Position numbers and translations under genes: made by a program. DNA of 64,000 nucleotides from positions 1 to 64,000 of IMG/VR virus record IMGVR_UViG_3300020202_000064; one strand, 5' to 3'. The notes under the pieces are model-generated. The model was given only the letters and a program-made list of their open reading frames with translations, was not told the origin of the DNA and searched no databases. This DNA comes from a virus. Below are positions 40,446 through 56,684 of this stretch, one piece after another (the stretch's first letter is position 1; the number at the start of each line of letters is the position of its first letter).

Positions 40446-40559
40446 CTAAGCCCTTTTTTTTGGATGCTACCATTACATTAGAGCGGCTTCCAACTCCGCT
40501 TGCCGACTCGAACGGCTCTCCTTGTTTCGTAGACAATTTTTGTTTGCTGTATGGGCTAA
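40446..40559 (-). ncRNA. ACAGC-stem RNA 1 (Y-RNA-like, permuted tRNA core)
   Basis: TTAGCCC-ATACAGCAA...GGGCTTAG enclosing T arm GCCGTTCGAGTCGGC, acceptor-like hairpin, D-like TAATGTAATGGTAGCAT. Confidence 0.75.
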
Positions 40560-40565
40560 TGGAAG

Positions 40566-40643
40566 TGGAGTTGACGGAGGCACTCGAAACCTCATGATAT
40601 CCTCTTTACAAGAGAGGTGCTTTTCCTCTTAAGCCACGTCAAC
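40566..40643 (-). tRNA. tRNA-Thr(TGT)
   Basis: Loop CTTGTAA, CCA. Confidence 0.88.
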
Positions 40644-40702
40644 GTTAAATCGATACAAAATTTCGTGTAATCTAATTCGAGCCTAAATAAAGGATTCGAA
40701 TT

Positions 40703-41101
40703 ATGAATATTAAAGAACAATGTCTGAAACTAAAATCAGAAAATCCAAAAATGTATTATAAAGAAATCGCAAAGATTGTCGGGTGTCAACCAAGCACTGT
40801 TTGCTATCATTTGAATGAAGACACGAGAAAAAATTACCGACATCGCCAATCTAAAAACAGAAGAATTAATAATAATGCATTAAAAAGTGTTAACGGCGGT
40901 AAATGTAAACTTTGTGGTTACTGCAAATCTTTGTCCGCTCTGCATTTTCATCATTTAGACCCAGATACGAAAACCGATGAAGTTTCAAGAATATTGAGAA
41001 CGCGCGGAAAATTAGCAGCCACGAACGAAGCAAAAAAATGTATTCTTATTTGTGCTAATTGTCATCATGAAATCCACGACGGATTAATAAAATTAGAATG
41101 A
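40703..41101 (+). CDS. HTH-HNH endonuclease
   Basis: CKLCG, LHFHHLDP, CILICANCH. Confidence 0.85.
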   Translation: MNIKEQCLKLKSENPKMYYKEIAKIVGCQPSTVCYHLNEDTRKNYRHRQSKNRRINNNALKSVNGGKCKLCGYCKSLSALHFHHLDPDTKTDEVSRILRTRGKLAATNEAKKCILICANCHHEIHDGLIKLE

Positions 41102-41103
41102 AA

Positions 41104-41178
41104 TGGAGTCCCGTATCGAACTTGAATCGATTTATTCGCGTTACGAATGCGAGGCATCACCATCAATGCTTACAGGAC
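41104..41178 (-). tRNA. tRNA-Thr(CGT)
   Basis: Loop TTCGTAA, U73 as in Thr(TGT), CCA. Confidence 0.78.
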
Positions 41179-41339
41179 GAAAAATTATTTTCTTTGGCGA
41201 TTTCTAAATATGATTTTTCGCCGGGTTTTTGCTGTATAAAATAATCCAACACCCTTGCTATTTCAAGGGGGTCTGTTCCTCGCTCAACCGAAGTAATTGT
41301 TAACTCCAATAGTTCCTTTTTCTTTTGATTATTCATAGA

Positions 41340-41416
41340 TGGCGCGACCAGCCCGATTCGAACGGGCACTAAAGCTACTTAGAAGGAAGCTTGACTTTCC
41401 AATTGCCGATGGTCGC
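41340..41416 (-). tRNA. tRNA-Arg(TCT)
   Basis: Loop CTTCTAA, CCA. Confidence 0.88.
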
Positions 41417-41653
41417 AAAAATTATTTATCGATTCTACGGATGGATTGATGTTCCTTAACGCGCATTTTGTCAAGTTCTTTCTGACTATAAATTTTGCGC
41501 ACTGCTACACCAACATATTTCTTTGGCAGAAAACCAATTGCACAATGTAAACCGATGCGAAATGGAATCTCCGCAATCAACCTTTCGCTTTCTCGCTTGG
41601 CGGCGCTTTCCTCAAATTCGCCAATATTATCATCTACCATCCAATTTTTCATA

Positions 41654-41748
41654 TGGTGGTTCCTGTCAGAATCGAACTGACGCTCGGCGGCAATCTACCG
41701 CATACAGGTTATAAATCTGTCGGTGCTCTCCAATTACACTAAGGAACC
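41654..41748 (-). tRNA. tRNA-Ile(TAT), long variable arm
   Basis: Loop TTTATAA; variable hairpin GCGGTAGATTGCCGC; CCA. Confidence 0.8.
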
Positions 41749-41869
41749 AAGCGAACCGTTTGCTTGAAGGCACTTTTACCCATCTACCCACAAACTTAAT
41801 TTTGCACCACGGTTCGACAGACAACTCACCCTCACATAACAGGTATTCTTCTGTGAGGGGACTAGCAAA

Positions 41870-41947
41870 TGGCATCCACGGTGAGCCTTGAACTCACATA
41901 TGACCAACTTGAGAGGTTGGTGACTTTGCCAATTTGTCAACGTGGAC
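41870..41947 (-). tRNA. tRNA-Glu(CTC)
   Basis: Loop CTCTCAA, CCA. Confidence 0.88.
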
Positions 41948-41959
41948 AAAAGGTCCAAC

Positions 41960-42223
41960 TTAATGAACTGATTTATCAGAAGGATTTTCTATACTTCTTT
42001 GAATTACTTTTGCACTTAGTAAGGTTAGCAAATAACTACCTAACGTTGCACCTACACTCGCGGGTATTTCCACAAGCGCGCCCGTCTTAATACAGGCGAA
42101 TAACCAGCCGCCGCAGATAGTTGTAAGAATCAGCATCGTACCAAGGAACACAACCAAACGTGTCGTGGAAGGGGTGTCAGGGGCTTCTTCCAAAGCCTTG
42201 CCTAACCAAGTAAAAAAGTTCAT
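41960..42223 (-). CDS. Small two-TM membrane protein (possibly holin-like)
   Basis: PSTTRL plus two hydrophobic helices; GTGTAA motif 8 nt upstream. Confidence 0.5.
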   Translation of the reverse strand: MNFFTWLGKALEEAPDTPSTTRLVVFLGTMLILTTICGGWLFACIKTGALVEIPASVGATLGSYLLTLLSAKVIQRSIENPSDKSVH

Positions 42224-42258
42224 AATCTGAATTACACGTAAGAATCAATCATTTAGCA

Positions 42259-42341
42259 TGGTGGTCAAGGTGGGACTCGAACCCACAAGCCGAAGCATAT
42301 GCACCTCAAGCATACGTGTATGCCAATTTCACCACATGACC
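42259..42341 (-). tRNA. tRNA-Leu(GAG)
   Basis: Loop TTGAGGT, class II, CCA. Confidence 0.92.
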
Positions 42342-42699
42342 ATAACGGATTTTAACGTAGAAAGCCGCAAACGCACAATATCATGTCCAATCCCAAGCGT
42401 TATCTCTTGGTTCTCTGGGTAAATTAACTTCTTCCTCGTCTATATTTCCCGCGCGTAGGTTTTTTAGTTCCTGATTGCGCTCGGCGCGACGGGCGCGCTC
42501 TCTCATTTGTTTGTGCCATTTTGGCGATTTATCCCAACGCTTTTTATCGCGAGTAAATTTCCATTCTGGCGTATTGTCAACAAGCGGTTCTCCCCACATC
42601 ATTATAGTGGGGCGCTTGCCACGTAGTTTCCTATCGTCAAAACGGCGTGTTCTGCTCATAGGAAGAAGCCTTTCGGCTGAGGTTTGTATTGGTAGAAGA

Positions 42700-42779
42700 T
42701 GGGGTATACGACGGGGCTTAAACCCGCAGGGACCAAGCTTCACAGGCTTGTGCGTCTAATCAATTTCGCCACGTATACC
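42700..42779 (-). tRNA. tRNA-His(GTG) with encoded G-1
   Basis: Loop CTGTGAA; G-1:C73 pair; CCA. Confidence 0.88.
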
Positions 42780-42783
42780 ATAA

Positions 42784-42911
42784 CTAAGTTCATTTTTATA
42801 TTGTCGCCTAAACCAGACTAGGCTACTTCCGCATATTGTAAATGGTGCGGAAGGTGGGATTTGAACGCCACGTATAACAATTTCCATGAAATTGGATGCT
42901 GTTAGAACTTA
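42784..42911 (-). ncRNA. ACAGC-stem RNA 2 (permuted tRNA core)
   Basis: TAAGTTC-TAACAGCAT...GAACTTAG enclosing T arm, CTTCCGC-ACCA, linker, GCGGAAG, D arm. Confidence 0.8.
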
Positions 42912-43717
42912 AATTGGTTTTTGATTTTATTATAAATCGTCATTTTTCTTCGTGTAATCTTTTATGGCAGGACCATAAGGATTCGAAAAAGATGATTAAA
43001 CTATTTACTGATAAAGAATTTAATTCGGCTAAATCGCGGGATTTACTACCTCTTAAATGCGAAAAATGTGGAAAAACTTTCCACAAGGCAAAACACAGAA
43101 TACAGGATGCCTTATCGACCAAGACGAAGCTTTTCTGGAAATTTTGTTCTAAACGATGCAGTGATGAACACTTCGAAACATCCATAGAAGTCGAATGTTG
43201 CCAGTGCAAACGGAAAACATTCAAAACCCCGTCAGAGATAAAAAAAGTAAGACGCCCATTTTGTTCACAATCTTGTGCAGCTTTATATAACAACACGCAT
43301 AAAACACACGGAACATCTCGTTCAAAACTAGAAAAATGGTTGGAATCTAAATTAATAACTGAATATCCCGAATTAGAATTTCATTTCTCAAGAAAAGATG
43401 CTATCAACGGTGAACTAGATATTTATATTCCATCATTAAAATTGGCATTTGAGTTAAACGGGATTTTCCATTATGAACCAATTTATGGTAAGGAACAATT
43501 AATCAAAATGCAGAACAACGATAAACGAAAGTTCCAAGCGTGTTTAGAAAATGGAATAGAACTATGTATTATAGATACAACGTCTCAAAAGTATTTTAAA
43601 GAAAATACCTCTTTAAAATTTCTTAATATCATCCGAGATATAATCGAAAGAAAAATGGCAGGACATGTAGGTGAGGAACCCACTTCTTCGCGTTTGGAGT
43701 GCGAGGCACATACCTAA
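42896..43717 (+). CDS. Zn-ribbon-containing endonuclease, PD-(D/E)XK-like (probable start 42992)
   Basis: CxxC/FCS repeats; ELDIYIP, AFELNG, HY. Confidence 0.75.
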   Translation: MLLELKLVFDFIINRHFSSCNLLWQDHKDSKKMIKLFTDKEFNSAKSRDLLPLKCEKCGKTFHKAKHRIQDALSTKTKLFWKFCSKRCSDEHFETSIEVECCQCKRKTFKTPSEIKKVRRPFCSQSCAALYNNTHKTHGTSRSKLEKWLESKLITEYPELEFHFSRKDAINGELDIYIPSLKLAFELNGIFHYEPIYGKEQLIKMQNNDKRKFQACLENGIELCIIDTTSQKYFKENTSLKFLNIIRDIIERKMAGHVGEEPTSSRLECEAHT

Positions 43718-43731
43718 TATACCAATGTCCT
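43656..43731 (-). tRNA. tRNA-Trp(CCA), atypical T loop
   Basis: Loop CTCCAAA; T loop TTCCTCA; G73, CCA. Confidence 0.8.
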
Positions 43732-43902
43732 ATAAAGTCATTTCTGACCATCTAAATATTTCTTGAACGCATCTTGATTTTTAATCGCCGCCCGAAGTTC
43801 TGGCGTCGTATCATCAATATACAACGGACATTGTACTGGTTCGTGATAACAGCCTTCGGCCAATATTTCTTTTATTTCTTCAATAGTCGTCTGATTCATA
43901 AT

Positions 43903-43979
43903 TGGTGCAAATGGAAGAAATCGAATCCTCAGTATAACTACGTTCGAAGCGTAGGTGGCTCTCCTGTGCCAGCATTTGC
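43903..43979 (-). tRNA. tRNA-Arg(TCG)
   Basis: Loop CTTCGAA, short D arm, CCA. Confidence 0.8.
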
Positions 43980-44010
43980 GTGTTTTAATTTTAGCTACGT
44001 ATGTATTAAA

Positions 44011-44087
44011 TGGTGGGGGCCGAGCGAATTGAACGCTCACATCAAGATTTTCAATCTAGCATGCTCACCAGTTTACATCAAACCCCC
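44011..44087 (-). tRNA. tRNA-Phe(GAA)
   Basis: Loop TTGAAAA, CCA. Confidence 0.88.
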
Positions 44088-44540
44088 AAAGGCTAGCAGC
44101 CACCCCACAACTTCGGGTATGTGACACCTGAAAGTCGGTTTCGCGCTATGCGCTAATCAAACACCGAACCTTTCCTTTATTGTAGTCCTTGTGGACTATC
44201 CTTTCCTTTTCCTTACCTACGGTATTTAACCATAGGTTATGCGCGGTTACCAGCCGCGACTTTATATCCCGGTAACCAGCCGGGAAATTTGTGAAATTTA
44301 TACATAAACGGCGGATTTAATTCGTCATTCATTCTGTTACAGTGTTCTCTGAGTAATCTTTTTAAATATACAGACTTAATCCATTGGTCTATAAACTCGC
44401 GCGCTTTATCTTGTTTATTCATGAATATACTGGTGTGTCTTTTCGTTGGTCTCCGACTAAAATCAATATTGCTTTGACCGCCTCAGTGAAGATATTCTAT
44501 TCATCGGGTTTTCTGCGACCCACTCTCCTTTTATATTCAT

Positions 44541-44617
44541 TGGTAGTCGCAATGGGATTCGAACCCATACTGAAAAGTTTTTAAGACTTTTGCTTCTGCC
44601 GGTTGAGCGATGCGACC
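44541..44617 (-). tRNA. tRNA-Leu(TAA), short variable arm
   Basis: Loop CTTAAAA, CCA. Confidence 0.85.
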
Positions 44618-44622
44618 ATAGC

Positions 44623-45186
44623 TTATTTCAGAGGGAATGCAACTGTATTTGTTGGGGCGCTATTGCCAGAAGAATTATAAGCGAACACACGATACCAATA
44701 TGTACCAACGCCTATATTCGTATCAATAAATGTATTTATGTTAGCTGAAGTCGTACCTATAACAACAAAATTTTCCCCATCATTACTACGCTCTATTTTA
44801 AAACCAGTTTCGTTGCTGGAATTATCACTCCAAGTTAATGTTACTGACGATGGGACGCTTCTAACACTCACACTTTCTAATTTTAAATATGTATATAAAC
44901 TGTCAATTTTTCGCAATACTGTTTGTAAATCTGTATTTGTATTATTTTGATTTTCCTTCAAAGCCGCTAACTCTTGCAATGCCAAATCTCTCTCTTGTTG
45001 AGCTTGCGCTACAAGCTTTTCTTGATACACAGCATATAAATGCCATGCTATAATCTGAGAATTTTTTGCATCCCACGCGGATTGTGCTGGATAAGCGGGG
45101 CGAGGAACGGGGGTAATAGATGTAACTTGAGCTAATAAAACACTCGCCAAAGCAACAACGAAGAAACTAATAAGAATTTTTTTCAT
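44623..45186 (-). CDS. Secreted protein with coiled coil and fibronectin type III domain
   Basis: Signal peptide MKKILISFFVVALASVLLA; VTLTWSDNSSNETGFKIERS...YWYRVFAYN; the longer track start overlaps tRNA-Gly. Confidence 0.8.
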   Translation of the reverse strand: MKKILISFFVVALASVLLAQVTSITPVPRPAYPAQSAWDAKNSQIIAWHLYAVYQEKLVAQAQQERDLALQELAALKENQNNTNTDLQTVLRKIDSLYTYLKLESVSVRSVPSSVTLTWSDNSSNETGFKIERSNDGENFVVIGTTSANINTFIDTNIGVGTYWYRVFAYNSSGNSAPTNTVAFPLK

Positions 45187-45195
45187 AAAACAACT

Positions 45196-45271
45196 TGGTG
45201 CGATATAGGAGATTTGAACTCCTACCCCATGCTTGGAAGGCGCGTGTGCTGCCATTAAACACTAATATCGC
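45196..45271 (-). tRNA. tRNA-Gly(TCC)
   Basis: Loop CTTCCAA, CCA. Confidence 0.88.
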
Positions 45272-45585
45272 AAAATGGGTATTAGCCCAAGATAAATCCG
45301 AGTACGAAAGCAACTACTGTCGAAATTAACGTCACTTTCATGCTAACCTGCTTGGCAAGAAACTGCTGAGTTTCCTCTTTGGCTTCATGCTTTAAGCGCG
45401 CTTTTGCCTCTTCAACGTGTTCTTTTAAATCGCTCATAGTATTGTTATGTTCAATCTAAATTACACTTTAAACTAGGGGCTTTACTCTAGCCCGACGGTA
45501 CAACAATCCACTGTTGCCATTGCGCCGCTTTTACATTAGCGGCAGAAAGCCCGCACATTTAAGCTGGCGGGGACTAACTATAGTC

Positions 45586-45661
45586 TGGTGGGCATGGCAG
45601 GAATCGAACCCGCAATCTTCACCGTGTAAAAGTGCCGCGTTAACCGTTACGCTACACGCCC
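45586..45661 (-). tRNA. tRNA-Val(TAC)
   Basis: Loop TTTACAC, CCA. Confidence 0.9.
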
Positions 45662-45662
45662 A

Positions 45663-46029
45663 TTTTCTATTCCAGTTTAGCCGCGATTCTGGTTTATCTC
45701 TACATTTCTCTAATCGGCTTTCGCCAATTCCCACCGTCAATAGATGGGTGCATCAACCCGGCCTCATCGATAAGCACTAATCTCAGCCTGTTTGACTTGC
45801 TACTACCATGAGGTATTAACGAATACGTGATAGGCTATGGTTTGTAAGCCATGCCGAGTATTCTCCCTATCGGTTGCTTTGTAGTCGCGAACTTCCTCTG
45901 ACTTATGGAATGCGGGGTTCCTCTCTTTCGAGTTTGGCATACCGCATCTTACGTCCCTTTACGCACCATTCTCAGGCCGTGGCCTGATTAAAGGTTTCAC
46001 CTTTCGTCAGCGTAGAGTCGAATAGAAAT
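45663..46029 (-). ncRNA. rnpB: RNase P RNA (atypical)
   Basis: P1 TTTCTATTC/GAATAGAAA, P2 CTCTAC/GTAGAG, GAGGAAGTTCGCGA pairing with CAGAATCGCGGCTAA (P4), GCAAGTCAAACAGG, GAGAAATG. Confidence 0.8.
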
Positions 46030-46080
46030 TTTGCACCCCGGACGTAACAATCTATAGTCATTGGAATCCGGCCCGTCTCC

Positions 46081-46586: not shown

Positions 46587-46664
46587 TGGCGCGGGAGGTG
46601 GGCTTCGAACCCACAACCTTGAAATTTAGAGTTTCCTGCTCTGAACCAGTTGAGCTACTCCCGC
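46587..46664 (-). tRNA. Amber suppressor tRNA(CTA)
   Basis: Canonical cloverleaf, loop CTCTAAA, G73, CCA. Confidence 0.88.
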
Positions 46665-48271: not shown

Positions 48272-48276
48272 ATAAC

Positions 48277-48401
48277 GATGCCCAAATCCATCAACGCTGG
48301 ATAAACGCGAATTACTTTCATTCCACCTTTCGGCGCGGGCGTAATCGACCATTTTTACTTCACGTAGTAGTTGTTTTTATTTGATTTGCTGTGTGGGCGT
48401 C
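48277..48401 (-). ncRNA. ACAGC-stem RNA 3 (divergent stem)
   Basis: GACGCCC-ACACAGCAA...GGGCATC. Confidence 0.55.
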
Positions 48402-48578: not shown

Positions 48579-49031
48579 ATGAGTAAATCATCAGAGGCCG
48601 TTAAAAAATGGAGAAAAGCAACTAAACAACGAATAATTGATGCTATGGGCAAACAGTGTCAATGTTGTGGGTATAATAGATGTAACGAGTGTTTAGATTT
48701 ACATCATTTGGACCCAAACGAAAAGGAACTAAGTTTTGGAGCGATAAGGGCGAACCCAATCGCTTGGTCGAAAATTGTAGAAGAGTTAAGAAAATGTATA
48801 TTAGTGTGTAGAAATTGCCATGGAGAAATACATAATAACAATCTTCCAATTCCAAACAACTATTGTAAATTTGACGAATCCTATTCAGAATACAAAATTG
48901 TATCCGAAGAACTTGCGTCTAAGTGTCCAAAATGCGGGGACCAAAAATTAACAATACATAAATTCTGTTCCCAGAATTGTGCAAAACGTGGACGTAAATT
49001 GGCTATACAGGTTGGAGCCGCCCCAACATAA
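48579..49031 (+). CDS. HNH endonuclease
   Basis: CQCCG, LDLHHLDP, CILVCRNCH. Confidence 0.85.
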   Translation: MSKSSEAVKKWRKATKQRIIDAMGKQCQCCGYNRCNECLDLHHLDPNEKELSFGAIRANPIAWSKIVEELRKCILVCRNCHGEIHNNNLPIPNNYCKFDESYSEYKIVSEELASKCPKCGDQKLTIHKFCSQNCAKRGRKLAIQVGAAPT

Positions 49032-49178: not shown

Positions 49179-49257
49179 CTAAGTTCCTTGTGCCTTTTAT
49201 TAACCGGTGGCAAAGCCCGTCTCCTGATTATGTCATAGATATTGCTGTATGAACTTA
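49179..49257 (-). ncRNA. ACAGC-stem RNA 4
   Basis: TAAGTTC-ATACAGCAA...GAACTTAG. Confidence 0.72.
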
Positions 49258-49260: not shown

Positions 49261-49399
49261 GTGGAACGTATGGGATTCGAACCCATATCGACGAACTTTA
49301 CGCCCGTCTCGTAAGATTATCTTATATATTCTTTTACCGGTGCGAATATATCACTTCATCAAACTACTTGTGGAGCTTTGACCATTAAGCTAACGTCCC
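49261..49399 (-). ncRNA. tRNA-like RNA with Ala identity and large insert replacing the anticodon arm
   Basis: Acceptor GGGACGT/ACGTTCC-A (G3:U70), canonical D and T arms, about 88 nt between them. Confidence 0.65.
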
Positions 49400-49435: not shown

Positions 49436-49582
49436 CTAAGCGCAACGCATTTACAGCGCGCGACTGAATGGCTTTTGTATTAGGCACCATCATTTCCTCG
49501 TGCAACCCGCCTCACTTCATCTTTCGATGGTGATTGGATGTTTGCACATCATCGATAAGTTTATTATCGCTGTATGCGCTTA
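49436..49582 (-). ncRNA. ACAGC-stem RNA 5
   Basis: TAAGCGC-ATACAGCGA...GCGCTTAG. Confidence 0.72.
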
Positions 49583-49586: not shown

Positions 49587-49728
49587 CTAAGTATAACGAA
49601 AAGTTTAGGCTCTTTTCGCGTTCCTAAAAAGCATGGAGAAGCTTTTCAATCTAACAGTTATGGAATGTCAGCCGGTGCCGCCCCGAAGGGTAGCGTCTTG
49701 TTAAGATAAGGATTGCTGTATATACTTA
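49587..49728 (-). ncRNA. ACAGC-stem RNA 6
   Basis: TAAGTAT-ATACAGCAA...ATACTTAG. Confidence 0.72.
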
Positions 49729-50120: not shown

Positions 50121-50470
50121 TGGTGGAGATGGAGGGCTTCGATTCCCTCGTGTCCGATACTTCGTATTTCCATTCTTGTTACATGCTTAGAATCACTTGA
50201 TAATATCGTTTTCGGTTTGATTCTACCAAACGACATTTGACGGTTATATAATCAGCTTCTATCAACCAGTCAATTTTAAAGCTGATTCCCGATGATGACG
50301 AGTGGCCCAATTTATCGGCGGTCAATTGGAACTCGGTTAGCCGCAATTAAGCAGCGTAAGCATAAACTTCTGTTTTCTTAGCGTTTATTTTGTGATACGT
50401 TTTACGACGTGGCATCATTGTCGGCATGGAATGTAAACCTACGTATTGGATAGAATCCAAATACATCCCC
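50121..50470 (-). ncRNA. ssrA: tmRNA
   Basis: GGGGATG.../...CATCTCCACCA with G3:U70; tag reading frame AKKTEVYAYAA* after ATAAAC. Confidence 0.92.
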
Positions 50471-50651: not shown

Positions 50652-50754
50652 TGGCGGAAGAGGCAAGATTCGAACTCGCACGCGCTATGGTTTACATATC
50701 GCCCTCGCATTTCAAGTGCGCTGCCGCTAGGCCATATCCTCGGCTTACTCTTCC
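50652..50754 (-). tRNA. tRNA-Ser(TGA), enlarged D and variable arms
   Basis: Loop CTTGAAA, G73, CCA. Confidence 0.8.
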
Positions 50755-50756: not shown

Positions 50757-50815
50757 CTAAGCGGGCGCAATTTTCCCTTTCGGGATGGCGATTTATATTT
50801 TGCTGTATCCGCTTG
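50757..50815 (-). ncRNA. ACAGC-stem RNA 7
   Basis: CAAGCGG-ATACAGCAA...CCGCTTAG. Confidence 0.7.
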
Positions 50816-50872: not shown

Positions 50873-50949
50873 TGGTGGCCGAGGGTGGGTTTGAACCACC
50901 AACCGTTCGTCTATCAAACGAATGCACTAGCCAATTGTGCTACACGGCC
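50873..50949 (-). tRNA. tRNA-Ile(GAT)
   Basis: Loop TTGATAG, CCA. Confidence 0.88.
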
Positions 50950-50954
50950 ATTAT

Positions 50955-51047
50955 CTAAGCTCTATTATTGTGCGGGCATCGAATCCCGCTCAATTCGTGT
51001 TTTTGAAACGAATTTTTATCCATTTAAGGTTTTGCTGTGAGAGCTTA
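50955..51047 (-). ncRNA. ACAGC-stem RNA 8
   Basis: TAAGCTC-TCACAGCAA...GAGCTTAG; T-arm-like GCGGGATTCGATGCCCGC. Confidence 0.72.
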
Positions 51048-51087
51048 TTGTGGAGCTTACTCCACCGTTCCAGCAAAGCTGGAAATA

Positions 51088-51144
51088 CTAAGCGCATTTT
51101 GTTTTTCATTAATCATTGAATTTTTAATTCGCTGTTAGCGCTTA
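51088..51144 (-). ncRNA. ACAGC-stem RNA 9
   Basis: TAAGCGC-TAACAGCGA...GCGCTTAG. Confidence 0.7.
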
Positions 51145-51327
51145 TAAGGAAACGAAAACTTGTTATGTTTTTGGCTTCTGATTCGAAGCATATTTGACGA
51201 AACGTTTATAATTTTTTAAATCGCGGCTAGCGTCTGTGCGCCGGGAATATGGACCGTAATCTAAATCCCCCCATTGATTTTTAAACCAAAACTTTCCATC
51301 TCGCTTGAAAATTTTCATACTCTAAAA

Positions 51328-51402
51328 TGGCGGGACCAACGAGTGCTACCCTCGCTTCTGTATCGTGACAGGATACCGCTTTTGTTGATAAGCTATGGCC
51401 CC
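51328..51402 (-). tRNA. tRNA-Asp(GTC), atypical D and T loops
   Basis: Loop CTGTCAC, G73, CCA. Confidence 0.78.
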
Positions 51403-51509
51403 AAAATTACAAAGGTCACTCCATCCCTTTGAATGGCAGTTTATAAACGTGGAAACGTTTAAAGGTTTTATTTTTCGCCGGTTCTGCTTTACCCTGAACC
51501 TAGAGAAGT

Positions 51510-51588
51510 TGGTAGCGCGTGTGGGGCTCGAACCCACGCATGACCGATTTGAAAGACCGGTGACTTGAACCTGCTTGTCAAACGCGCC
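51510..51588 (-). tRNA. tRNA-Glu(TTC)
   Basis: Loop CTTTCAA, CCA. Confidence 0.88.
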
Positions 51589-51724
51589 GTAAAGATATTC
51601 TTTTGTATCCATCTATTCGGATTAACAACAACCCCAATGTTCGATACAAATAAACTACAATAACAGTTGTTTTTGATATATTATTATAGAAGAACTGAGG
51701 TGGAAATAAGTGTAATTACACTAT

Positions 51725-52300
51725 ATGTCCACTAAAATATTATCTGAATTTTCTCGATGTGACTCCTTTGGAACGCAGCGTAAATACGTTTCTTACCATT
51801 GTACTCGATGCGGTGTCGAACATTCCAAACCAAAACGTAACTTTTGGTTAGATAGACCCAACTTCTGTTCCGTTAACTGTGCAAGAGAACATCAAAAAAT
51901 TTTGCATTCATTTGAAGCTGAGTGCGCATGGTGCGCAAATAAATTCCACAAAAAGATATCAACAAAGGGAAATAGTCGTTCCGGTTTATATTTTTGTTCC
52001 AGACTATGCAAAGACAAGGCTCAAAGCTTGGAAGGTGGTATAAAGGAAATACAGCCAAATCATTACGGAGAAATTAAAAAGAATTATCGCGAAACTGCAT
52101 TTAAAAATCTGCCAGCACGCTGTAATCGATGCGACTTTGCTGCTTACCCAGAGATACTAGAGGTTCATCACAAAGACCATAATCACCATAATAATACCGT
52201 AGATAATTTGGAAATTTTATGTCCAAACTGCCACGAAATTCATCACTTCGAAACGAAATCGGGTAAATATGCCAAAAGTGGTGGACTGGAAGGGGATTGA
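51725..52300 (+). CDS. Zn-ribbon HNH endonuclease
   Basis: FCS repeats; LEVHHKDHNHHNN...NLEILCPNCH. Confidence 0.85.
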   Translation: MSTKILSEFSRCDSFGTQRKYVSYHCTRCGVEHSKPKRNFWLDRPNFCSVNCAREHQKILHSFEAECAWCANKFHKKISTKGNSRSGLYFCSRLCKDKAQSLEGGIKEIQPNHYGEIKKNYRETAFKNLPARCNRCDFAAYPEILEVHHKDHNHHNNTVDNLEILCPNCHEIHHFETKSGKYAKSGGLEGD

Positions 52301-52354
52301 ACCCTCCACACGAACATTGCAAATGTCTGTCGCCTCCGAGGAACATGCCAGCCC
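52279..52354 (-). tRNA. tRNA-Ala(TGC)
   Basis: Loop TTTGCAA, G3:U70, CCA. Confidence 0.82.
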
Positions 52355-52357
52355 AAC

Positions 52358-52434
52358 TGGTGTTTCCACTCGGAATTGAACCAAGATGATACAGTTTAGG
52401 AAACTGTTGCCTTATCCAGTTAGGCGATGGAAAC
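52358..52434 (-). tRNA. tRNA-Arg(CCT)
   Basis: Loop TTCCTAA, CCA. Confidence 0.88.
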
Positions 52435-52435
52435 G

Positions 52436-52669
52436 TTAACTCAAAATTACACCCAAATCATTAACTTCGTTTTCAAACTCGTCGAACGTCGGTTCAATAT
52501 CTTCCATTGAGGCATCGATTCTTTTCTGCTTCATGCGACGATACTGAGTGTGACAGACTGCCAATCTTTGTTTATCATTACCATATTCCTTTTGCATCAA
52601 ATCCGAATCCATACAACGATTGATGAATTCAGTCTGTTTTTCATTGGACTTTGGTGTAGGCAGTGGCAT
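52436..52669 (-). CDS. Small conserved phage protein
   Basis: MPLPTP..E...FINRCM...EY....QRLAVC; GTGTAA motif 8 nt upstream. Confidence 0.65.
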   Translation of the reverse strand: MPLPTPKSNEKQTEFINRCMDSDLMQKEYGNDKQRLAVCHTQYRRMKQKRIDASMEDIEPTFDEFENEVNDLGVILS

Positions 52670-52699
52670 ACACTATATTACACTAAATGTCACCTAAAA

Positions 52700-52786
52700 T
52701 GGTGGTCCCGGTGGGATTTGAACCCACAGTGCCCGAAGGCGGCAGATTTACAGTCTGCTACGTCTACCAATTGACGCGTCGTGACC
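52700..52786 (-). tRNA. tRNA-Tyr(GTA)
   Basis: Loop CTGTAAA, class II, CCA. Confidence 0.9.
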
Positions 52787-52944
52787 ATCATACGAACTAC
52801 GGTACATATGATTTATCATCACCCCAATGCCTTGGGCCGATTTTTTGCGAGGTTGTACATTCCTCCGTTCGTATTCTGTATTAGGGATGCCTCCCTTTTA
52901 ACATATGAGAGATAGGTGAGTTAATTACACTCACTTATCTTTGA

Positions 52945-53038
52945 CTAAGTATATTTTTATCACCCCATAAATTTGAAATGGCGGGGTGTGAAGGAATTGA
53001 ACCTTCTGTTTCCAGAAAAGTCATGCTGTTAATACTTA
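52945..53038 (-). ncRNA. ACAGC-stem RNA 10 (permuted T arm plus acceptor)
   Basis: TAAGTAT-TAACAGCAT...ATACTTAG enclosing GAAGGTTCAATTCCTTC, CACCCC-GCCA, linker, GGGGTG. Confidence 0.78.
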
Positions 53039-53039
53039 A

Positions 53040-53116
53040 TGGTGCGGTCAGAGGGACTCGAACCCCCACTAAAAGATTCGTAATCTTTCGTGCTAATTCC
53101 ATTACACTATGTCCGC
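53040..53116 (-). tRNA. tRNA-Arg(ACG)
   Basis: Loop TTACGAA, CCA. Confidence 0.9.
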
Positions 53117-53166
53117 ATATCGACGGGCCTACCCGCCGTGGTTTAACCAATTTTTAGGAAAAATAA

Positions 53167-53289
53167 CTAAGTTCGTTTTTTTCGTTGTTCTGCTTTAAAC
53201 TAACTTGCTGAAATTGAAATTGGTGGCAAGTGAAGTGCGCTACGCTCCATCTCCGTCTTATGTGATGATTTAACCGCTGTTAGAACTTA
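53167..53289 (-). ncRNA. ACAGC-stem RNA 11 (permuted tRNA core)
   Basis: TAAGTTC-TAACAGCGG...GAACTTAG enclosing degenerate T arm, ACTTGCC-ACCA, linker, AGCAAGT, D-like arm. Confidence 0.75.
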
Positions 53290-53290
53290 A

Positions 53291-53364
53291 TGGTCCACCT
53301 AGAAAGATTCGAACTTTCACCTTACCGCCCCAAACGGTAAACGCTGCCTTTACGCTATAGATGG
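53291..53364 (-). tRNA. tRNA-Pro(TGG)
   Basis: Loop TTTGGGG, C1-G72, CCA. Confidence 0.88.
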
Positions 53365-53619
53365 ATAATTACTCTGAATCCCAACCGATTAGTTGGGCAA
53401 GTCAAGTCTGCCTGCTCGCACGGACTTTCGTTAAAGTATCGCTGGCGCTCGATACCAAAGCGGAAATTTTTCCCTCTCCCCTCTCCCGAGGTTTGAGTTG
53501 GCGGTGACATACTAACTTCCAAAAGTCACCCTTCGTAATCTGTTAAAATGAACGTCCTTCCTTTCGGTCGGATGTACGAGCCGCATTTTTTAAGATACGC
53601 TCGATAAACTATGCCCAAC

Positions 53620-53647
53620 ACCTTACCATAGGTTTTGCATTCGTCAA
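53620..53647 (-). promoter_or_regulatory. Putative sigma70-like promoter at the head of the RNA island
   Basis: TTGACG-16 nt-TAAGGT. Confidence 0.4.
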
Positions 53648-53712
53648 GAGATTTTCTTGATTTCCTTTGCATTACTTACGTAAACCGTTGAACTTTAAAG
53701 AACTAAAATGGG

Positions 53713-53742
53713 AAAGCCGGGGGGTTTTATTCCACCGGCTTT
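53713..53742. terminator. Intrinsic terminator-like hairpin
   Basis: AAAGCCGG...CCGGCTTT inverted repeat downstream of ORF 53778-54023. Confidence 0.55.
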
Positions 53743-53777
53743 CGAAGCTTTCTTTGCTTTGGGCTTTTTAGCCGGTG

Positions 53778-54023
53778 TTATTCATCAATCACTAATCCGA
53801 GTTTGGAGGCGACGAGATTAAATACGTATTCGTCATCTGTACCCCAATTTTCATATTCTACGCCTTCAATTGTAACTCGGTTTACGGTTAGGGTCGCAGC
53901 GCTCGAATCTAATAAGGCCCATTGAACACTAGCAGATTGTGAAAGAACAAGATGAACATCGTCAACGCGCAATTGCGTTGCGGTATTGGGGAATACTGTG
54001 ACTGGCTCGATGTTCTTTATCAT
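53778..54023 (-). CDS. Small hypothetical phage protein
   Basis: YENWGTDDEYV; GTGTAA motif upstream. Confidence 0.55.
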   Translation of the reverse strand: MIKNIEPVTVFPNTATQLRVDDVHLVLSQSASVQWALLDSSAATLTVNRVTIEGVEYENWGTDDEYVFNLVASKLGLVIDE

Positions 54024-54073
54024 ATTGTCTGTATAGGATATTACACGTAAAAAGGGAGAATTTGCAACAAAAC

Positions 54074-54910
54074 TTACAATTTTCTCAATTTAAACTCTTC
54101 AATCTTCTCATCAGGAACAAGGAGAATGTCCTGTCGCCATTCTGAATAGATGGTAAGCGGCTCAAGGCAATAGCCACAATACATACTGTAACCAATGTAA
54201 TCCTGCAATTGTTTGATTGCCATATGCGTGCGCGGGAACCACTCGGCATGAATCACGGGACGATGTTCCTTAATAATATCCCTGAAACTCCACAAGATGT
54301 GGAAGTCATGCCCCTCAGTATCGATTTTAATAAACGAGATATCGGCAAAGTTAACCTGTGGCCCAAGAAACTTTTCAAAACTGACAGCGCGAATCAAACG
54401 GGGTACTGTGTAAGTTCCAACCCAAGAATTCGTAGAAGGATGCCCGCCATTATCATCGGTGGCCGAATATAGAAATTGGTGGATACCTTCATGTTCCATA
54501 ACGGCATAAGGACAACCAACAATATTCATACTTGGGTTAAGCCCCAAATTGATATTAAGTTGTGACGAAAAGCTCGGACTACATTCGAAAGCAAATACTT
54601 TACCACCATCCGTGAGGATAGAAATGGCCAAACTCGTGTCACCATCGTAGGCACCAATATCAACCGCCACTGAACCAGAACGAACGAATCGATGATTGAC
54701 GTTGATGAAATTATTTACGAACTCTGAGTATGGAGTTGGTAACGAGCCGCGTTTCTGTGGCGCTTTATGACAGAAGGCTATCTTATAATCTTTATCTTTA
54801 TAATTTACCTTAAATTTCTCAACATGAGTCAGGATATCATTACCTTTTAATTCCTCGATGTGAGGAAGACCATCAATATAATTCTTTTCGTTGACGTAAG
54901 GGGGAGACAT
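54074..54910 (-). CDS. FkbM-family methyltransferase
   Basis: VDIGAYDG, VFAFE, FIKIDTEGHD. Confidence 0.88.
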   Translation of the reverse strand: MSPPYVNEKNYIDGLPHIEELKGNDILTHVEKFKVNYKDKDYKIAFCHKAPQKRGSLPTPYSEFVNNFINVNHRFVRSGSVAVDIGAYDGDTSLAISILTDGGKVFAFECSPSFSSQLNINLGLNPSMNIVGCPYAVMEHEGIHQFLYSATDDNGGHPSTNSWVGTYTVPRLIRAVSFEKFLGPQVNFADISFIKIDTEGHDFHILWSFRDIIKEHRPVIHAEWFPRTHMAIKQLQDYIGYSMYCGYCLEPLTIYSEWRQDILLVPDEKIEEFKLRKL

Positions 54911-55108
54911 AATAAAATTATTGAGCCATCAGACCACCAAGCGCAATGCCGCCGATTAGAGTAAATCCAATGTCGTTTTGAATACCACCAGCAATGATGA
55001 ACACAGCCGCAATTAATCCTAAAATCACGGCCCTAAACAAATCGTGTAGTTTCTTCTGCGTCATAAATAATGAAACCCGTCGCTGTTATACGACGGGAAT
55101 CAGTTTCC

Positions 55109-56644
55109 TTAAGCCTTAATCGGTTCGTACCTTTCGGTATTCACCGTCTGCAAGAACATGTCCCATGGGGAAGTAATCTTGCCACTCATAATTGTCTTGA
55201 GGATGCTTGGGGAAGCACCCGAACACAACATGACACCCTTTTCGTCAAACTTCACCGGACTGTCTGAGTAGGCGTTAACCTGCCAGAATACAATATCAGG
55301 AAGTTTATATCCTGCTTGCGCATATTGCCGCTTAATTGCTTCGTGGTTTGTTCCACCATTAACACAATTAAACTGCATATCAGATATGATAACAATCTTT
55401 GATGGCATTTCAGACTGTGGCACGTTATTTTGGATAGCGTGGCGAAGAATTGCTTGGAACGAAGATTGTACATTCGTGGAGCCGCCCCAATCAGCCGAAT
55501 TAAGGTTAATCAATTTCTCCTTGAGATTTCCGCCAACAACCTTCTGCAAACGGGAGTCGTCTGAGAAAGTTAGGAAATAACCGTTGAATGCGCCGCGATT
55601 ACGCTCTGCCGTATAAAGGGCGAGTGAAACGCAGATATCGATTGGGCTTACACTTTCGCCATAACGAACACCCAAATTTCCCATGGAGCCGGAAACGTCC
55701 GCAACAACAAGGATATTGTCGTTCTTCCCTTCTGTGTAGTCGGGAAGTGCATTCCATTGCGCTTCGATTGTACGAAGGTCGTTACCGTCCTTCTGTGTAA
55801 TTCCGCGCATCAAATCATACGGATATAGCGTTGCAGAATTAATCTTCGCTTCGCCCTTCTCGACCTTGGTCAAGAACTTCTCATAGCGCTTTGGGTCGTG
55901 CTTGTTAAAGGCAGACTTGTAAATAAGCGCAGCACGAGATGGTACTTGCTCAAAGTTAATCTTGCTCCATTCACCACTGGTCATCAACCGTTCAACGATA
56001 CCGATTTCCTCACGAAGACCGGACAACATCTTACGATATGCCTTTGGTGACATTTTCATTGCGGCGCGAACCTTTTCAGCCAAACGACGTGTCGTCGCGC
56101 TGGAAGCCTGCGCAGATGGTGCCCATTTTGCAGCCAATGTAATCGCTTCGCCCTTTGCCTTCTTATAAGCATCGGTCTTCAATTGGGACGCAACGAAAAC
56201 CAATGCATCCTTCTCCAATGGAGTGCCCTCCAAGGATTCAAGAACATTGTCGAAACGGGTATATTCAGGAACGTGCTGAATAAGCTTCTTTGCCACAGGC
56301 GCGTCATTCTTCGCGAGCCAGTTAAGACCCAAGCGAAAAAGACGACGTTCACCCTGTCCGCCGCGCACGTCACCCAAATAGAATAACGTCCTTAGTGCAA
56401 GGGTTTTATCTTCTGCATATGCGGCGCTGAAAAGCTTTGTAACTTCGGCATCGGCTTGATTGCGCAATGCGCCACCTCGCGAGAACAAGTCCAGCAAGGA
56501 TGTGCCAGTGGTTGAATGTGATACTGCGCCGTTTAAGGTTGTAGTATCTTTCGTTTGCATAGCGCTAATAAGCGCATTCTGCTTCTTAGGGGTTGCAGTG
56601 TTACGGGTAAACTGCCCCAATGAGTTTCTCTTTATATTCTTCAT
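55109..56644 (-). CDS. Ro60/TROVE-like helical domain plus vWA protein (DUF2828-type)
   Basis: DVRGGQGERR, LAAKWAPS, VPSRA, LYPYD, MIDAS DVSGSM, TFS, ISDMQF. Confidence 0.85.
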   Translation of the reverse strand: MKNIKRNSLGQFTRNTATPKKQNALISAMQTKDTTTLNGAVSHSTTGTSLLDLFSRGGALRNQADAEVTKLFSAAYAEDKTLALRTLFYLGDVRGGQGERRLFRLGLNWLAKNDAPVAKKLIQHVPEYTRFDNVLESLEGTPLEKDALVFVASQLKTDAYKKAKGEAITLAAKWAPSAQASSATTRRLAEKVRAAMKMSPKAYRKMLSGLREEIGIVERLMTSGEWSKINFEQVPSRAALIYKSAFNKHDPKRYEKFLTKVEKGEAKINSATLYPYDLMRGITQKDGNDLRTIEAQWNALPDYTEGKNDNILVVADVSGSMGNLGVRYGESVSPIDICVSLALYTAERNRGAFNGYFLTFSDDSRLQKVVGGNLKEKLINLNSADWGGSTNVQSSFQAILRHAIQNNVPQSEMPSKIVIISDMQFNCVNGGTNHEAIKRQYAQAGYKLPDIVFWQVNAYSDSPVKFDEKGVMLCSGASPSILKTIMSGKITSPWDMFLQTVNTERYEPIKA

Positions 56645-56647
56645 AAA

Positions 56648-56684
56648 CTAAGTAATTTTTAATTGTTAATGCTGACATTACTTA
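56648..56684 (-). promoter_or_regulatory. Minimal ACAGC-stem copy in the 5' UTR of the Ro60-like gene
   Basis: TAAGTAA-TGTCAGCAT...TTACTTAG-TTT-ATG. Confidence 0.65.

What the first reader, a model, noticed from the sequence alone, without database searches (positions are those of the whole stretch)
40446..56684. Family of 12 covarying ACAGC-stem RNAs linked to a Ro60/TROVE-like protein: candidate phage Ro-Y RNP system
Seen in sequence (minus strand): twelve elements of about 37-147 nt open with TAAG-xyz-NN-(A)CAGC and close with z'y'x'-CTTAG. The three variable pairs covary: CCC/GGG (40446), TTC/GAA (42784, 49179, 53167), CGC/GCG (49436, 51088), TAT/ATA (49587, 52945), CGG/CCG (50757), CTC/GAG (50955), TAA/TTA (56648), plus a divergent copy at 48277. 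The CAGC core is invariant and unpaired (ACAGC in 11 of 12), while the enclosed cargo differs in every copy. Most copies lie within about 0-6 nt of a tRNA 5' end or CCA end, so RNase P/RNase Z cleavage would release them as discrete RNAs. Established: Ro60 (TROVE+vWA) binds a terminal stem of Y RNAs whose other module recruits effectors. Inference: the DUF2828-type protein at 55109-56644 binds this handle and loads about 11 different cargo RNAs (decoys or adaptors). The handle does not match the classical Y RNA GGUCCGA/UUGACC site, and I know of no description of it.
Basis: partly seen in the sequence, partly recalled or inferred. Interest (0 to 1): 0.92.

Follow-up and report, generated by a model that had tools for sequence, protein, structure and literature searches.

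The report
Ro60-like phage protein with partner RNAs
This uncultured phage carries 12-13 small RNA genes among its tRNA genes that share one conserved "handle", next to a gene for a Ro60-like ring protein; the same pairing recurs in many distant phages, so it is probably a widespread and barely described RNA-protein particle.

Summary
On the minus strand there are nine perfect elements, UAAGxyz-NN-(A/U)CAGC...z'y'x'CUUA-G, plus three variants at the stated positions. A probable 13th lies at 41185-41244. Eleven of the 13 lie 0-7 nt from a tRNA end.

The protein at 55109-56644 matches DUF2828 and DUF7788. Its predicted fold matches Ro60 first in the PDB (top 13 hits).

The same handle (7-bp covarying stem, two nt, NC(A/U)GC, usually A) lies on the gene's strand in 13 of 15 DUF2828 lineages examined. 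It was absent from 7 tRNA-rich phages without DUF2828, including Bxz1, which has a canonical Ro.

Element 40446-40559 carries a tRNA-like module (T arm, acceptor-like hairpin, D arm, in YrlA order). That module is conserved in Felix O1, Bacillus phage PK-3 and a metagenomic relative. No Rfam family matches any element.

Binding is inferred, not shown. A 2024 preprint found that the Felix O1-type homologue (Bas63 gp130) is Ro60-like and counters the Ppl defence, but it did not identify the RNAs. The handle has the same design as the Class I RNAs of Dictyostelium.

This scan has noted the same pairing before on other DNA (206 earlier findings). I class it as a new variant of the Ro/Y-RNA kind.

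The parts
55109..56644 (-). Gene for the Ro60-like protein (DUF2828 + DUF7788/vWA, 511 aa; the start may instead be the TTG at 56620)
   Evidence: Pfam PF11443 at 2e-37 and PF25043 at 1.4e-42. AF2 pLDDT 89.5. Foldseek top 13 hits are Ro60/Rsr. MIDAS D316-x-S318-x-S320 is invariant in 65 homologues.
56648..56684 (-). Minimal handle RNA (37 nt; UAAGUAA-UG-UCAGC-A...UUACUUA-G), 4 nt upstream of the ATG of the Ro-like gene. It is the likely 5' leader.
   Evidence: CM R2 hit at E 0.031. A promoter-like site at 56723-56694 lies just upstream. A handle sits in the same position before the gene in L009, L011, L012, L017, L019, L032, L034 and L036.
53167..53289 (-). Handle RNA (UAAGUUC/GAACUUA), 101-nt cargo with an acceptor-like hairpin whose loop starts ACCA. 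It starts 1 nt after tRNA-Pro.
52945..53038 (-). Handle RNA (UAAGUAU/AUACUUA). The cargo has a canonical T arm (GAAGG-UUCAAUU-CCUUC) and an acceptor-like hairpin followed by GCCA. It starts 1 nt after tRNA-Arg.
51088..51144 (-). Short handle RNA (UAAGCGC/GCGCUUA), 35-nt A-rich cargo
   Evidence: CM R2 hit at E 7.6e-10, but this element is a seed sequence of the model, so the match holds by construction.
50955..51047 (-). Handle RNA (UAAGCUC/GAGCUUA). The cargo has a 7-bp hairpin plus a T-arm-like hairpin. It ends 6 nt before tRNA-Ile.
50757..50815 (-). Short handle RNA, variant stem CAAGCGG/CCGCUUA (first pair mismatched). It ends 3 nt before a tRNA-Ser(UGA)-like gene.
49587..49728 (-). Handle RNA (UAAGUAU/AUACUUA), 120-nt multi-hairpin cargo. 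It abuts the CCA end of tRNA-Ser.
49436..49582 (-). Handle RNA (UAAGCGC/GCGCUUA), 125-nt multi-hairpin cargo, 5 nt after the previous element
49179..49257 (-). Handle RNA (UAAGUUC/GAACUUA), 57-nt cargo, between a 138-nt tRNA-like gene (4 nt away) and tRNA-Asn (7 nt away)
   Evidence: CM R2 hit at E 0.012.
48276..48401 (-). Divergent handle RNA (GACGCCC-AC-ACAGC-A...GGGCAUC-G, 6 of 7 pairs). It ends 5 nt before tRNA-Gln.
42784..42911 (-). Handle RNA whose cargo is a complete circularly permuted tRNA body: anticodon-stem 3' strand, V, T arm, acceptor stem closed by a loop that begins ACCA, U8A9, D arm, anticodon-stem 5' strand. It ends 6 nt before tRNA-His.
   Evidence: Read directly from the sequence. 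The MFE fold keeps the T arm, acceptor hairpin and D arm. ARAGORN calls a tRNA in 4 re-permuted variants in which a 7-nt loop replaces the handle.
41185..41244 (-). Its AU-only stem is not followed by G. It ends 6 nt before tRNA-Thr.
   Evidence: CM R2 does not detect it.
40446..40559 (-). Handle RNA (UUAGCCC/GGGCUUA, one mismatch). Its cargo is the conserved tRNA-like module: T arm GCCG-UUCGAGU-CGGC, acceptor-like hairpin, D arm with AAUGGUA loop. It lies between tRNA-Thr and tRNA-Leu.
   Evidence: Orthologous elements in L032:11809-11918, Felix O1 FO1a L018:12421-12545 and Bacillus PK-3 L016:3611-3737 align. They share GGUUCGAnUCC and GUGUAAUGGUAGCA. 13 of 19 consensus pairs show compensatory changes. 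ARAGORN calls a tRNA in one re-permuted variant.
55076..55097 (-). Terminator-like hairpin just after the stop codon of the Ro-like gene. It contains an ACAGC, but it is better read as a terminator than as a handle.
   Evidence: 8-bp stem with 6 GC pairs, then a T-rich tail.
56694..56723 (-). Promoter-like site (CGGACA-18-TAGAAU). It would start transcription about at the 5' end of the leader handle.
   Evidence: This is a consensus match only.

Best explanation
The elements are genes for a family of small non-coding RNAs that are the partner RNAs of the Ro60-like DUF2828 protein encoded at the head of the array. They are the counterpart of Y RNAs for a non-canonical Ro paralogue.

Shown: each RNA is closed by a 7-bp stem joining its ends. 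The stem is followed on the 5' side by two nucleotides and the invariant NCAGC(A/G), and on the 3' side by G. This handle and the gene co-occur, on one strand, in distant phages.

Inferred: the RNAs are made as parts of the polycistronic tRNA transcript. They are set free by 3' processing of the upstream tRNA and by RNase P cleavage at the downstream tRNA, which leaves a 3' tail of about 4-7 nt. The ring protein binds the stem/ACAGC junction, as Ro60 binds the conserved Y-RNA stem. The variable cargo then gives each particle its specificity. In at least two RNAs the cargo is a tRNA mimic of YrlA topology, which could dock tRNA-handling enzymes or act as bait for them. The copy in the gene's own leader would allow feedback control.

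The likely biological role is RNA surveillance or counter-defence during infection. The Felix O1-type homologue (Bas63 gp130) neutralises the Ppl defence system.
For: Motif and stems are real and non-random. The protein has the Ro60 fold with an intact MIDAS motif. With a stem-plus-core scan, the handle was found on the gene strand in the DUF2828 loci first examined and (nearly) never on the other strand. A covariance model built from 12 short elements of 8 phages gave 28 of 28 hits (E<=1) on the gene strand (12 of the 28 are the model's own seeds) and 14 of 14 in further metagenome loci. In whole-record searches, the DUF2828-positive phages KVP40 (chosen blind as a control), FO1a, P100plus and Bas63 all have hits at E<=4e-6 (FO1a and P100plus contributed seeds, so only KVP40 is fully independent). 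The DUF2828-negative phages T4, T5, Bxz1, phiCbK, G, LP65 and S-CRM01 have none better than E 0.2. Counted by lineage this is 13 of 15 against 0 of 7, p = 2e-4. NCAGCA sites on the gene strand have a perfect 7-bp partner in 44 of 224 cases against 5 of 250 on the other strand, p = 1e-10. All 7 stem pairs show double changes between phages. Handles stand directly before the gene in contigs with no tRNA at all (L034, L036). The tRNA-like cargo of 40446-40559 is conserved with compensatory changes in four phages whose proteins are at most 60% identical. Bas63 gp130 is Ro60-like and counters Ppl (PMC11482910). I confirmed that bas63_0130 is the homologue (38% identity, E 7e-80) and that handle RNAs lie in unannotated gaps between its tRNAs.
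Against: There are no binding or expression data for any member. In PMC11482910, gp130 alone, moved to T7 or a plasmid, sufficed against Ppl, so that activity may not need the phage's own RNAs. Two DUF2828 lineages (L014/L015 and L038) showed no handle within the DNA available. The covariance model finds only 3 of the 13 window copies because long cargos are penalised. The alignment used for pair counts was chosen and fitted by its stem. The Ro60 match rests on a predicted model, with TM 0.45-0.61 and 13-17% identity. No TROVE Pfam hit was found. No RtcB was found in the 94-kb record, which is only about 46% complete.
Confidence: 0.7

Rival explanations
1. The stem-ACAGC elements are processing or stability modules of the tRNA operon. 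They would be spacers that guide RNase P, RNase III/E or 3' trimming, or that insulate neighbouring tRNAs, and they would have no special tie to the DUF2828 protein.
For: Eleven of 13 copies lie 0-7 nt from tRNA ends. In many phages the elements are interleaved with tRNAs.
Against: Seven tRNA-rich phages without DUF2828 have none. Contigs L034 and L036 have 4-10 handles directly upstream of the gene and no tRNA. One copy sits in the gene's own leader. The cargos are long and partly conserved.
Confidence: 0.1
2. The elements are mainly cis-acting operators. The protein binds the handle in its own leader for autoregulation, and the other copies only titrate the protein or are decaying duplicates.
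For: A handle lies 4-80 nt before the start codon in the window and in at least eight other loci.
Against: Most copies are far from any ORF. The stems keep perfect pairing with different sequences within one genome. One cargo class is conserved across phages of different phyla of hosts. This points to selection on trans-acting RNAs.
Confidence: 0.08
3. They are circularly permuted or split tRNA genes that mature into working tRNAs, or dead tRNA pseudogenes.
For: 42784-42911 and 40446-40559 contain T arm, acceptor stem and D arm. Three acceptor-hairpin loops begin NCCA.
Against: The place of the anticodon loop is taken by the handle, so nothing can decode. ARAGORN finds nothing in doubled sequences. 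Nine or more cargos lack tRNA features. No tRNA or YrlA Rfam hit falls on them. Pseudogenes would not keep covarying stems.
Confidence: 0.04
4. They are DNA-level repeats: targets or remnants of the homing endonucleases in the array, or miniature mobile elements with terminal inverted repeats.
For: HNH and zinc-finger ORFs lie on the opposite strand within the array.
Against: There is a strict strand asymmetry: the core lies on one side only, and 42 of 42 model hits are on the gene strand. The variable triplets are compensated within each copy rather than shared between copies. Stem sequences differ wholly between phages while pairing is kept.
Confidence: 0.03

Closest known systems
Ro60/Rsr with Y RNAs, especially bacterial and mycobacteriophage YrlA (Chen et al. 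2014, PMC4201824)
   Same: A ring-shaped HEAT-repeat plus vWA protein fold. The RNA genes lie next to the protein gene and on its strand. The RNA is closed by a stem joining its ends. At least one RNA per genome has a tRNA-like module in the order T arm, acceptor-like hairpin, D arm. There are several RNAs per protein.
   Different: The protein matches DUF2828/DUF7788, not the TROVE Pfam family, and is 13-17% identical to solved Ro60s. The handle is a 7-bp stem plus NN-NCAGC-A, not GNCGAAN0-1G/GGUCCGA. There is no Rfam YrlA or Y_RNA match even at E<=10. There are up to 13 copies, most with non-tRNA cargo. Bxz1, a phage with a true TROVE Ro, has no such handle.
Bas63 (Felixounavirus) gp130, counter of the Ppl defence (PhageMaP preprint, PMC11482910)
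   Same: It is a homologue of the window's protein (38% identity, E 7e-80). It sits directly upstream of a tRNA array. The authors noted its Ro60-like structure and guessed at Y-RNA partners.
   Different: The authors suspected that some annotated tRNAs were the partners. The handle RNAs in fact lie in unannotated gaps (MZ501086:82237-82298 and 82692-82763). gp130 worked without them in T7. No test exists for the window's phage.
Class I RNAs of dictyostelid social amoebae (PMC7919456; search pattern GTTGRCCTTACAGCAA...GTCAACTG in PMC5054030)
   Same: A short covarying stem joins the ends. An unpaired conserved motif ending ...ACAGCAA lies directly 3' of the 5' strand. The rest of the RNA is variable, there are many genes per genome, and the length is about 60 nt for the short members.
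   Different: These are eukaryotic RNAs with their own promoter element. The stem is 6 bp. No tRNA-like cargo is reported. The only protein shown to bind directly is the RRM protein Rnp1A. Any link to a DUF2828 protein is untested, and common descent is not shown.
Stable RNAs embedded in phage tRNA clusters (my recollection of the T4 species 1/2 RNAs, not checked here)
   Same: Small non-tRNA RNAs are co-transcribed with phage tRNAs and released by tRNA processing enzymes.
   Different: T4 has no DUF2828 gene and no handle hit better than E 0.44.

Membership tests
Ro60 / TROVE protein family | Sequence match to the TROVE domain (Pfam PF05731) | tested here: not met
   Pfam gives only PF11443 (DUF2828), PF25043 (DUF7788) and a weak VWA_CoxE match. 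phmmer against PDB sequences finds no Ro60.
Ro60 / TROVE protein family | Full-length fold: alpha-helical HEAT-repeat ring followed by a vWA domain | tested here: met
   AF2 model with pLDDT 89.5 and pTM 0.88. The Foldseek PDB top 13 hits are all Ro60/Rsr/phiLo Ro60, with E 1e-8 to 2e-6, TM 0.44-0.61 and 508-572 aligned columns.
Ro60 / TROVE protein family | MIDAS motif (DxSxS) in the vWA domain | tested here: met
   D316, S318 and S320 are invariant in 65 homologues.
Ro60 / TROVE protein family | Binds the stem of partner RNAs and threads single-stranded 3' ends through the ring | not testable with these tools
   This needs biochemistry or a structure.
YrlA / Y RNA (Rfam) | Match to the family covariance model | tested here: not met
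   No Y_RNA or YrlA hit on any element at the gathering score or at E<=10.
YrlA / Y RNA | Conserved Ro-binding motif GNCGAAN0-1G near the 5' end (PMC4201824) | tested here: not met
   The 5' parts read stem-NN-ACAGC-R in all copies, and no GNCGAA is present.
YrlA / Y RNA | tRNA-like domain in the order T arm, acceptor-like hairpin, D arm | tested here: met
   Met for 42784-42911 and 40446-40559. It is partial in 52945-53038 and 53167-53289, and absent from the other copies.
YrlA / Y RNA | Encoded near the Ro gene and on its strand | tested here: met
Dictyostelid Class I RNA | Short terminal stem conserved in pairing, not in sequence | tested here: met
   A 7-bp stem, 100% paired, with double changes in all 7 pairs. 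It varies within the window too.
Dictyostelid Class I RNA | 11-nt motif CCUUACAGCAA next to the 5' strand (invariant T3, C6, C9, A10, A11) | tested here: inconclusive
   The window has NN-ACAGC in 12 of 13 copies, followed by A in 10 of 13 and by AA in 7 of 13. Felix O1 has UUACAGCAA exactly. The first positions of the motif differ, and the resemblance may be convergent.
Dictyostelid Class I RNA | Eukaryotic gene with a DUSE promoter element, 42-65 nt long | tested here: not met
   The genes lie in a phage tRNA operon. Lengths are 37-147 nt.
Functional tRNA | Anticodon stem-loop and free acceptor ends | tested here: not met
   The handle takes the place of the anticodon loop and a loop closes the acceptor stem. 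ARAGORN and the Rfam tRNA model do not call the elements.

The most novel reading that the evidence does not exclude
The DUF2828 ring protein with stem-ACAGCAA RNAs is an ancient second Ro/Y-RNA system shared by phages, bacteria and eukaryotes. On this reading the long-unexplained Class I RNAs of Dictyostelium are the partner RNAs of a eukaryotic DUF2828 protein. In phages the particle would be a programmable anti-defence device whose exchangeable cargos (tRNA mimics and others) bait or tether host nucleases.
Probability: 0.3. Interest if true: 0.92.

Novelty: new variant of a known kind. Interest (0 to 1): 0.8.

Why it matters
Ro60 and its Y RNAs are a classic but still poorly understood RNA-surveillance particle. 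Here a distant structural paralogue, present in more than 700 sequenced phage records, comes with its own recognisable RNA family. That family is missing from Rfam and is unannotated in model phages such as Felix O1, Bas63, P100 and KVP40.

This has several consequences:
- It gives names and coordinates to the RNAs that the PhageMaP authors could only guess at.
- It makes the anti-defence activity of gp130-type proteins testable at the RNA level.
- It explains many 'empty' gaps in phage tRNA arrays.
- It offers a concrete, testable candidate for the protein partner and origin of the Dictyostelium Class I RNAs.

The window itself is a rich example. It holds 12-13 RNAs with different cargos, two of them full tRNA mimics, beside about 34 tRNA genes and a tmRNA.

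Tried and rejected
- AF2 without an alignment gave a useless model (pLDDT 42).
- phmmer against PDB sequences found nothing.
- ARAGORN with introns on doubled element sequences found no permuted tRNA. It only did so after the handle was replaced by a 7-nt loop.
- MAFFT cannot align the 3' strands of elements of unequal length. I therefore seeded the model from three 56-nt elements and refined it by cmsearch.
- The ACAGC at 55086 looked like a 14th minimal handle after the gene, but it is better read as the loop of a terminator hairpin.
- I looked for an unpermuted version (hairpin + NN-NCWGC inside a tRNA), as in Synechococcus phage B23. There is none in this genome.
- A search for RtcB in the 94-kb record found none, but the record is only about 46% complete.
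- AcrIIIA1, a protein-RNA anti-CRISPR that binds tRNA fragments (PMC11662646), was considered as a relative. It was rejected because its authors found only one homologue and no structural match, so it is at most an analogy.
- No sign that TAG is read as sense despite the CUA-anticodon tRNA (rough frame-length count).
- The body of 42784-42911 is not a recent copy of any tRNA in the window.

Full report
**What is there.**
The window is part of a 94-kb record of an uncultured virus, estimated at about 46% complete. Between 36.9 and 53.4 kb the minus strand carries 31 ARAGORN tRNA genes. Rfam adds a tmRNA at 50121-50470 and three further tRNA-like genes.

The pattern TAAGN6CAGC occurs 12 times against 0.88 expected.
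- Nine elements have a perfect 7-bp stem UAAGxyz/z'y'x'CUUA. The 5' strand is followed by two nucleotides and (A/U)CAGC, and the 3' strand by G.
- Three variants exist: 40446-40559, 50757-50815 and the divergent 48276-48401.
- The variable triplets are compensated within each copy: UUC/GAA three times, CGC/GCG twice, UAU/AUA twice, and CUC/GAG, CGG/CCG, CCC/GGG and UAA/UUA once each.

I also tested this starting from the sequence motif alone. Nine of the 14 minus-strand ACAGC[AG] sites inside the array have a perfect partner at the fixed offset, against none of 55 sites elsewhere or on the other strand (p = 3.5e-8). I add a probable 13th copy at 41185-41244. Eleven of 13 copies lie 0-7 nt from a tRNA 3' end and/or a tRNA 5' end. 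Release by the tRNA processing enzymes is therefore plausible, but it is not shown.

**The protein.**
The ORF at 55109-56644 matches DUF2828 and DUF7788. No TROVE hit appears, and sequence search against the PDB finds nothing. With an alignment of 65 homologues the AlphaFold model is confident (pLDDT 89.5). Its 13 best PDB matches are all Ro60, Rsr or the Thermus phage Ro60, aligned over the full length (E 1e-8 to 2e-6, TM 0.44-0.61, 13-17% identity). The DxSxS MIDAS motif of the vWA domain is invariant. So the protein is a distant structural paralogue of Ro60 and not a member of the TROVE sequence family. Homologues occur in 705 phage records, including Felix O1-like, Listeria P100-like, Enterococcus, Vibrio, Aeromonas, Campylobacter, Bacillus and cluster L mycobacteriophages, where it is annotated 'Ro-like'.

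**Is the RNA tied to the protein?**
I scanned for a 7-bp stem, 1-3 nt, C(A/U)GC(A/G), 8-180 nt of cargo, the closing strand and G. This found the handle on the gene strand in:
- metagenomic loci L009-L012;
- Bacillus phage PK-3;
- Synechococcus phage B23;
- Salmonella phage FO1a (Felix O1);
- Listeria phage P100plus.

There were almost no hits on the other strand. The stem sequences differ completely between phages (AGACCAA, AGGAAUC, AAGACAC, UAGAUGC and others), while the core and the trailing G stay.

I then built a covariance model from 12 short elements of 8 phages. It gave 28 of 28 hits on the gene strand (12 of these are the model's own seed sequences) and 14 of 14 in further metagenome loci.

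Whole-record searches gave a small co-occurrence test:
- KVP40 was picked as a control without knowing its status. It turned out to carry the gene and a hit at E 4e-6.
- FO1a, P100plus and Bas63 are also positive, though the first two contributed seeds.
- T4, T5, Bxz1 (which has a canonical TROVE Ro), phiCbK, G, LP65 and S-CRM01 lack the gene. None has a hit better than E 0.2 in about 1.5 Mb.

By lineage the count is 13 of 15 against 0 of 7 (p = 2e-4). NCAGCA sites on the gene strand have a perfect stem in 44 of 224 cases against 5 of 250 on the other strand (p = 1e-10). Contigs L034 and L036 carry 4-10 handles directly before the gene and no tRNA at all, which argues against a mere tRNA-processing signal. 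Two lineages (L014/L015 and L038) showed no handle in the DNA at hand.

On the model-fitted alignment all seven pairs show double changes and every cell is paired. That alignment was selected by its stem, so the motif-first counts above are the fairer evidence.

**The cargos.**
They range from 15 to 125 nt.

Element 42784-42911 reads as a complete circularly permuted tRNA body. After the handle come the 3' strand of an anticodon stem, a variable loop and a T arm. An acceptor stem follows, closed by a loop that begins ACCA. Then come U8-A9, a D arm with GG, and the 5' strand of the anticodon stem. ARAGORN calls a tRNA once the sequence is re-permuted and the handle is replaced by a loop.

Element 40446-40559 belongs to a cargo class conserved in a 60%-identical relative (L032), in Felix O1 and in Bacillus phage PK-3. 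The class has the tRNA-invariant GGUUCGAnUCC and GUGUAAUGGUAGCA blocks, and 13 of 19 consensus pairs show compensatory changes. This is the topology described for YrlA (PMC4201824, sections read). Even so, no Rfam Y RNA model matches and the proposed Ro-binding motif GNCGAA is absent.

Elements 52945-53038 and 53167-53289 have parts of such a body. The remaining copies carry plain hairpins or A-rich linkers.

In Synechococcus phage B23 a 110-nt 'undetermined tRNA' carries the same handle, unpermuted, in place of its anticodon loop (AUAUCUA-G-UU-UAGAUAU-UA-ACUGC-AA). This shows that handle plus tRNA body is the selected unit.

**The leader copy.**
The 37-nt element at 56648-56684 lies 4 nt before the ATG of the gene, behind a promoter-like site. 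A handle in the same place is seen in at least eight other loci. This fits co-transcription and possibly feedback control.

**What is known.**
No Rfam family covers the elements, and the papers that mention DUF2828 say nothing on this.

A 2024 preprint (PMC11482910) reports that Bas63 gp130 is structurally similar to Ro60 and counters the Ppl defence. It does so even when moved alone into T7. The authors suggest that some annotated tRNAs might be its Y RNAs. I confirmed that bas63_0130 is a homologue of the window's protein, and that handle RNAs lie in unannotated gaps between its tRNAs.

The Class I RNAs of Dictyostelium have the same design: a short covarying terminal stem followed by an unpaired motif ending ACAGCAA (pattern GTTGRCCTTACAGCAA...GTCAACTG in PMC5054030; features in PMC7919456). 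That lead came from earlier notes of this scan. I checked the published pattern. I did not check whether Dictyostelium has a DUF2828 protein.

The scan has recorded the same protein-RNA pairing on other DNA before (206 findings). My tests here were made independently on this window and on freshly fetched loci.

**Verdict.**
Binding, the processing ends and the biological role remain inferences. I rate it a new variant of a known kind: a Ro60-like ring with terminal-stem RNAs and tRNA mimicry, built from a different protein family and a different, apparently uncatalogued RNA handle.

Noticed in passing
window 50121-50470 (-): A tmRNA gene (Rfam 92 bits) lies inside the phage tRNA array, 4 nt upstream of tRNA-Lys(CUU) and 11 nt downstream of tRNA-Lys(UUU). 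Relatives L010 and L032 also carry a tmRNA near the DUF2828 gene.
   Followed up: partly
window 49262-49399 (-): A 138-nt tRNA-like gene (Rfam tRNA, 42.8 bits). It has a normal acceptor stem, D arm and T arm, but about 65 extra nucleotides, including an 8-bp AU hairpin, where the anticodon and variable region should be. There is no CAGC core. It sits between two handle RNAs.
   Followed up: partly
window 46587-46664 (-): A tRNA with anticodon CUA (amber suppressor; ARAGORN labels it 'Pyl'). A rough count of open frames gave no sign that TAG is read as sense in this record.
   Followed up: partly
window 50656-50754 (-): A tRNA missed by ARAGORN, with a weak Rfam tRNA-Sec hit (30.7 bits). By eye it is a class II tRNA with anticodon UGA (Ser) and an encoded CCA.
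   Followed up: no
window 39464-39988, 42896-43717, 48579-49031, 51725-52300 (+): ORFs on the strand opposite to the tRNA array. One is an HNH endonuclease and three have zf-FCS/MYND-like zinc-finger matches. They are probably mobile or homing-type genes lodged in the array.
   Followed up: partly
window 54074-54910 (-): An FkbM-family methyltransferase gene lies directly downstream of the Ro-like gene and before the tRNA array. Whether it acts on the RNAs is unknown, and I did not check its presence next to DUF2828 in other phages.
   Followed up: no
L017 7896-8005 (Synechococcus phage B23, MN695335): The annotated 'tRNA-Undet' is a tRNA body whose anticodon loop is replaced by the handle as a closed hairpin followed by UA-ACUGC-AA. 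It is a natural unpermuted version of the handle/tRNA-mimic RNAs.
   Followed up: partly
L019 11145-12356 (Listeria phage P100plus): An RtcB-type RNA ligase gene lies 1.3 kb downstream of the DUF2828 gene, with three handle RNAs just upstream of that gene. This echoes the bacterial rsr-yrlBA-rtcBA arrangement.
   Followed up: no
L031 2895-2962 (Bas63, MZ501086:82692-82763): A handle RNA overlaps the annotated 'hypothetical protein' bas63_0137 on the opposite strand. That small ORF call is probably spurious.
   Followed up: no
window 56747-57415 and 57695-60322 (-): An HNH endonuclease gene sits between the Ro-like gene's promoter region and a DNA polymerase III alpha (DnaE) gene of only 875 aa, which starts at profile position 12 of the NTPase domain. 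The polymerase may be split or truncated.
   Followed up: no
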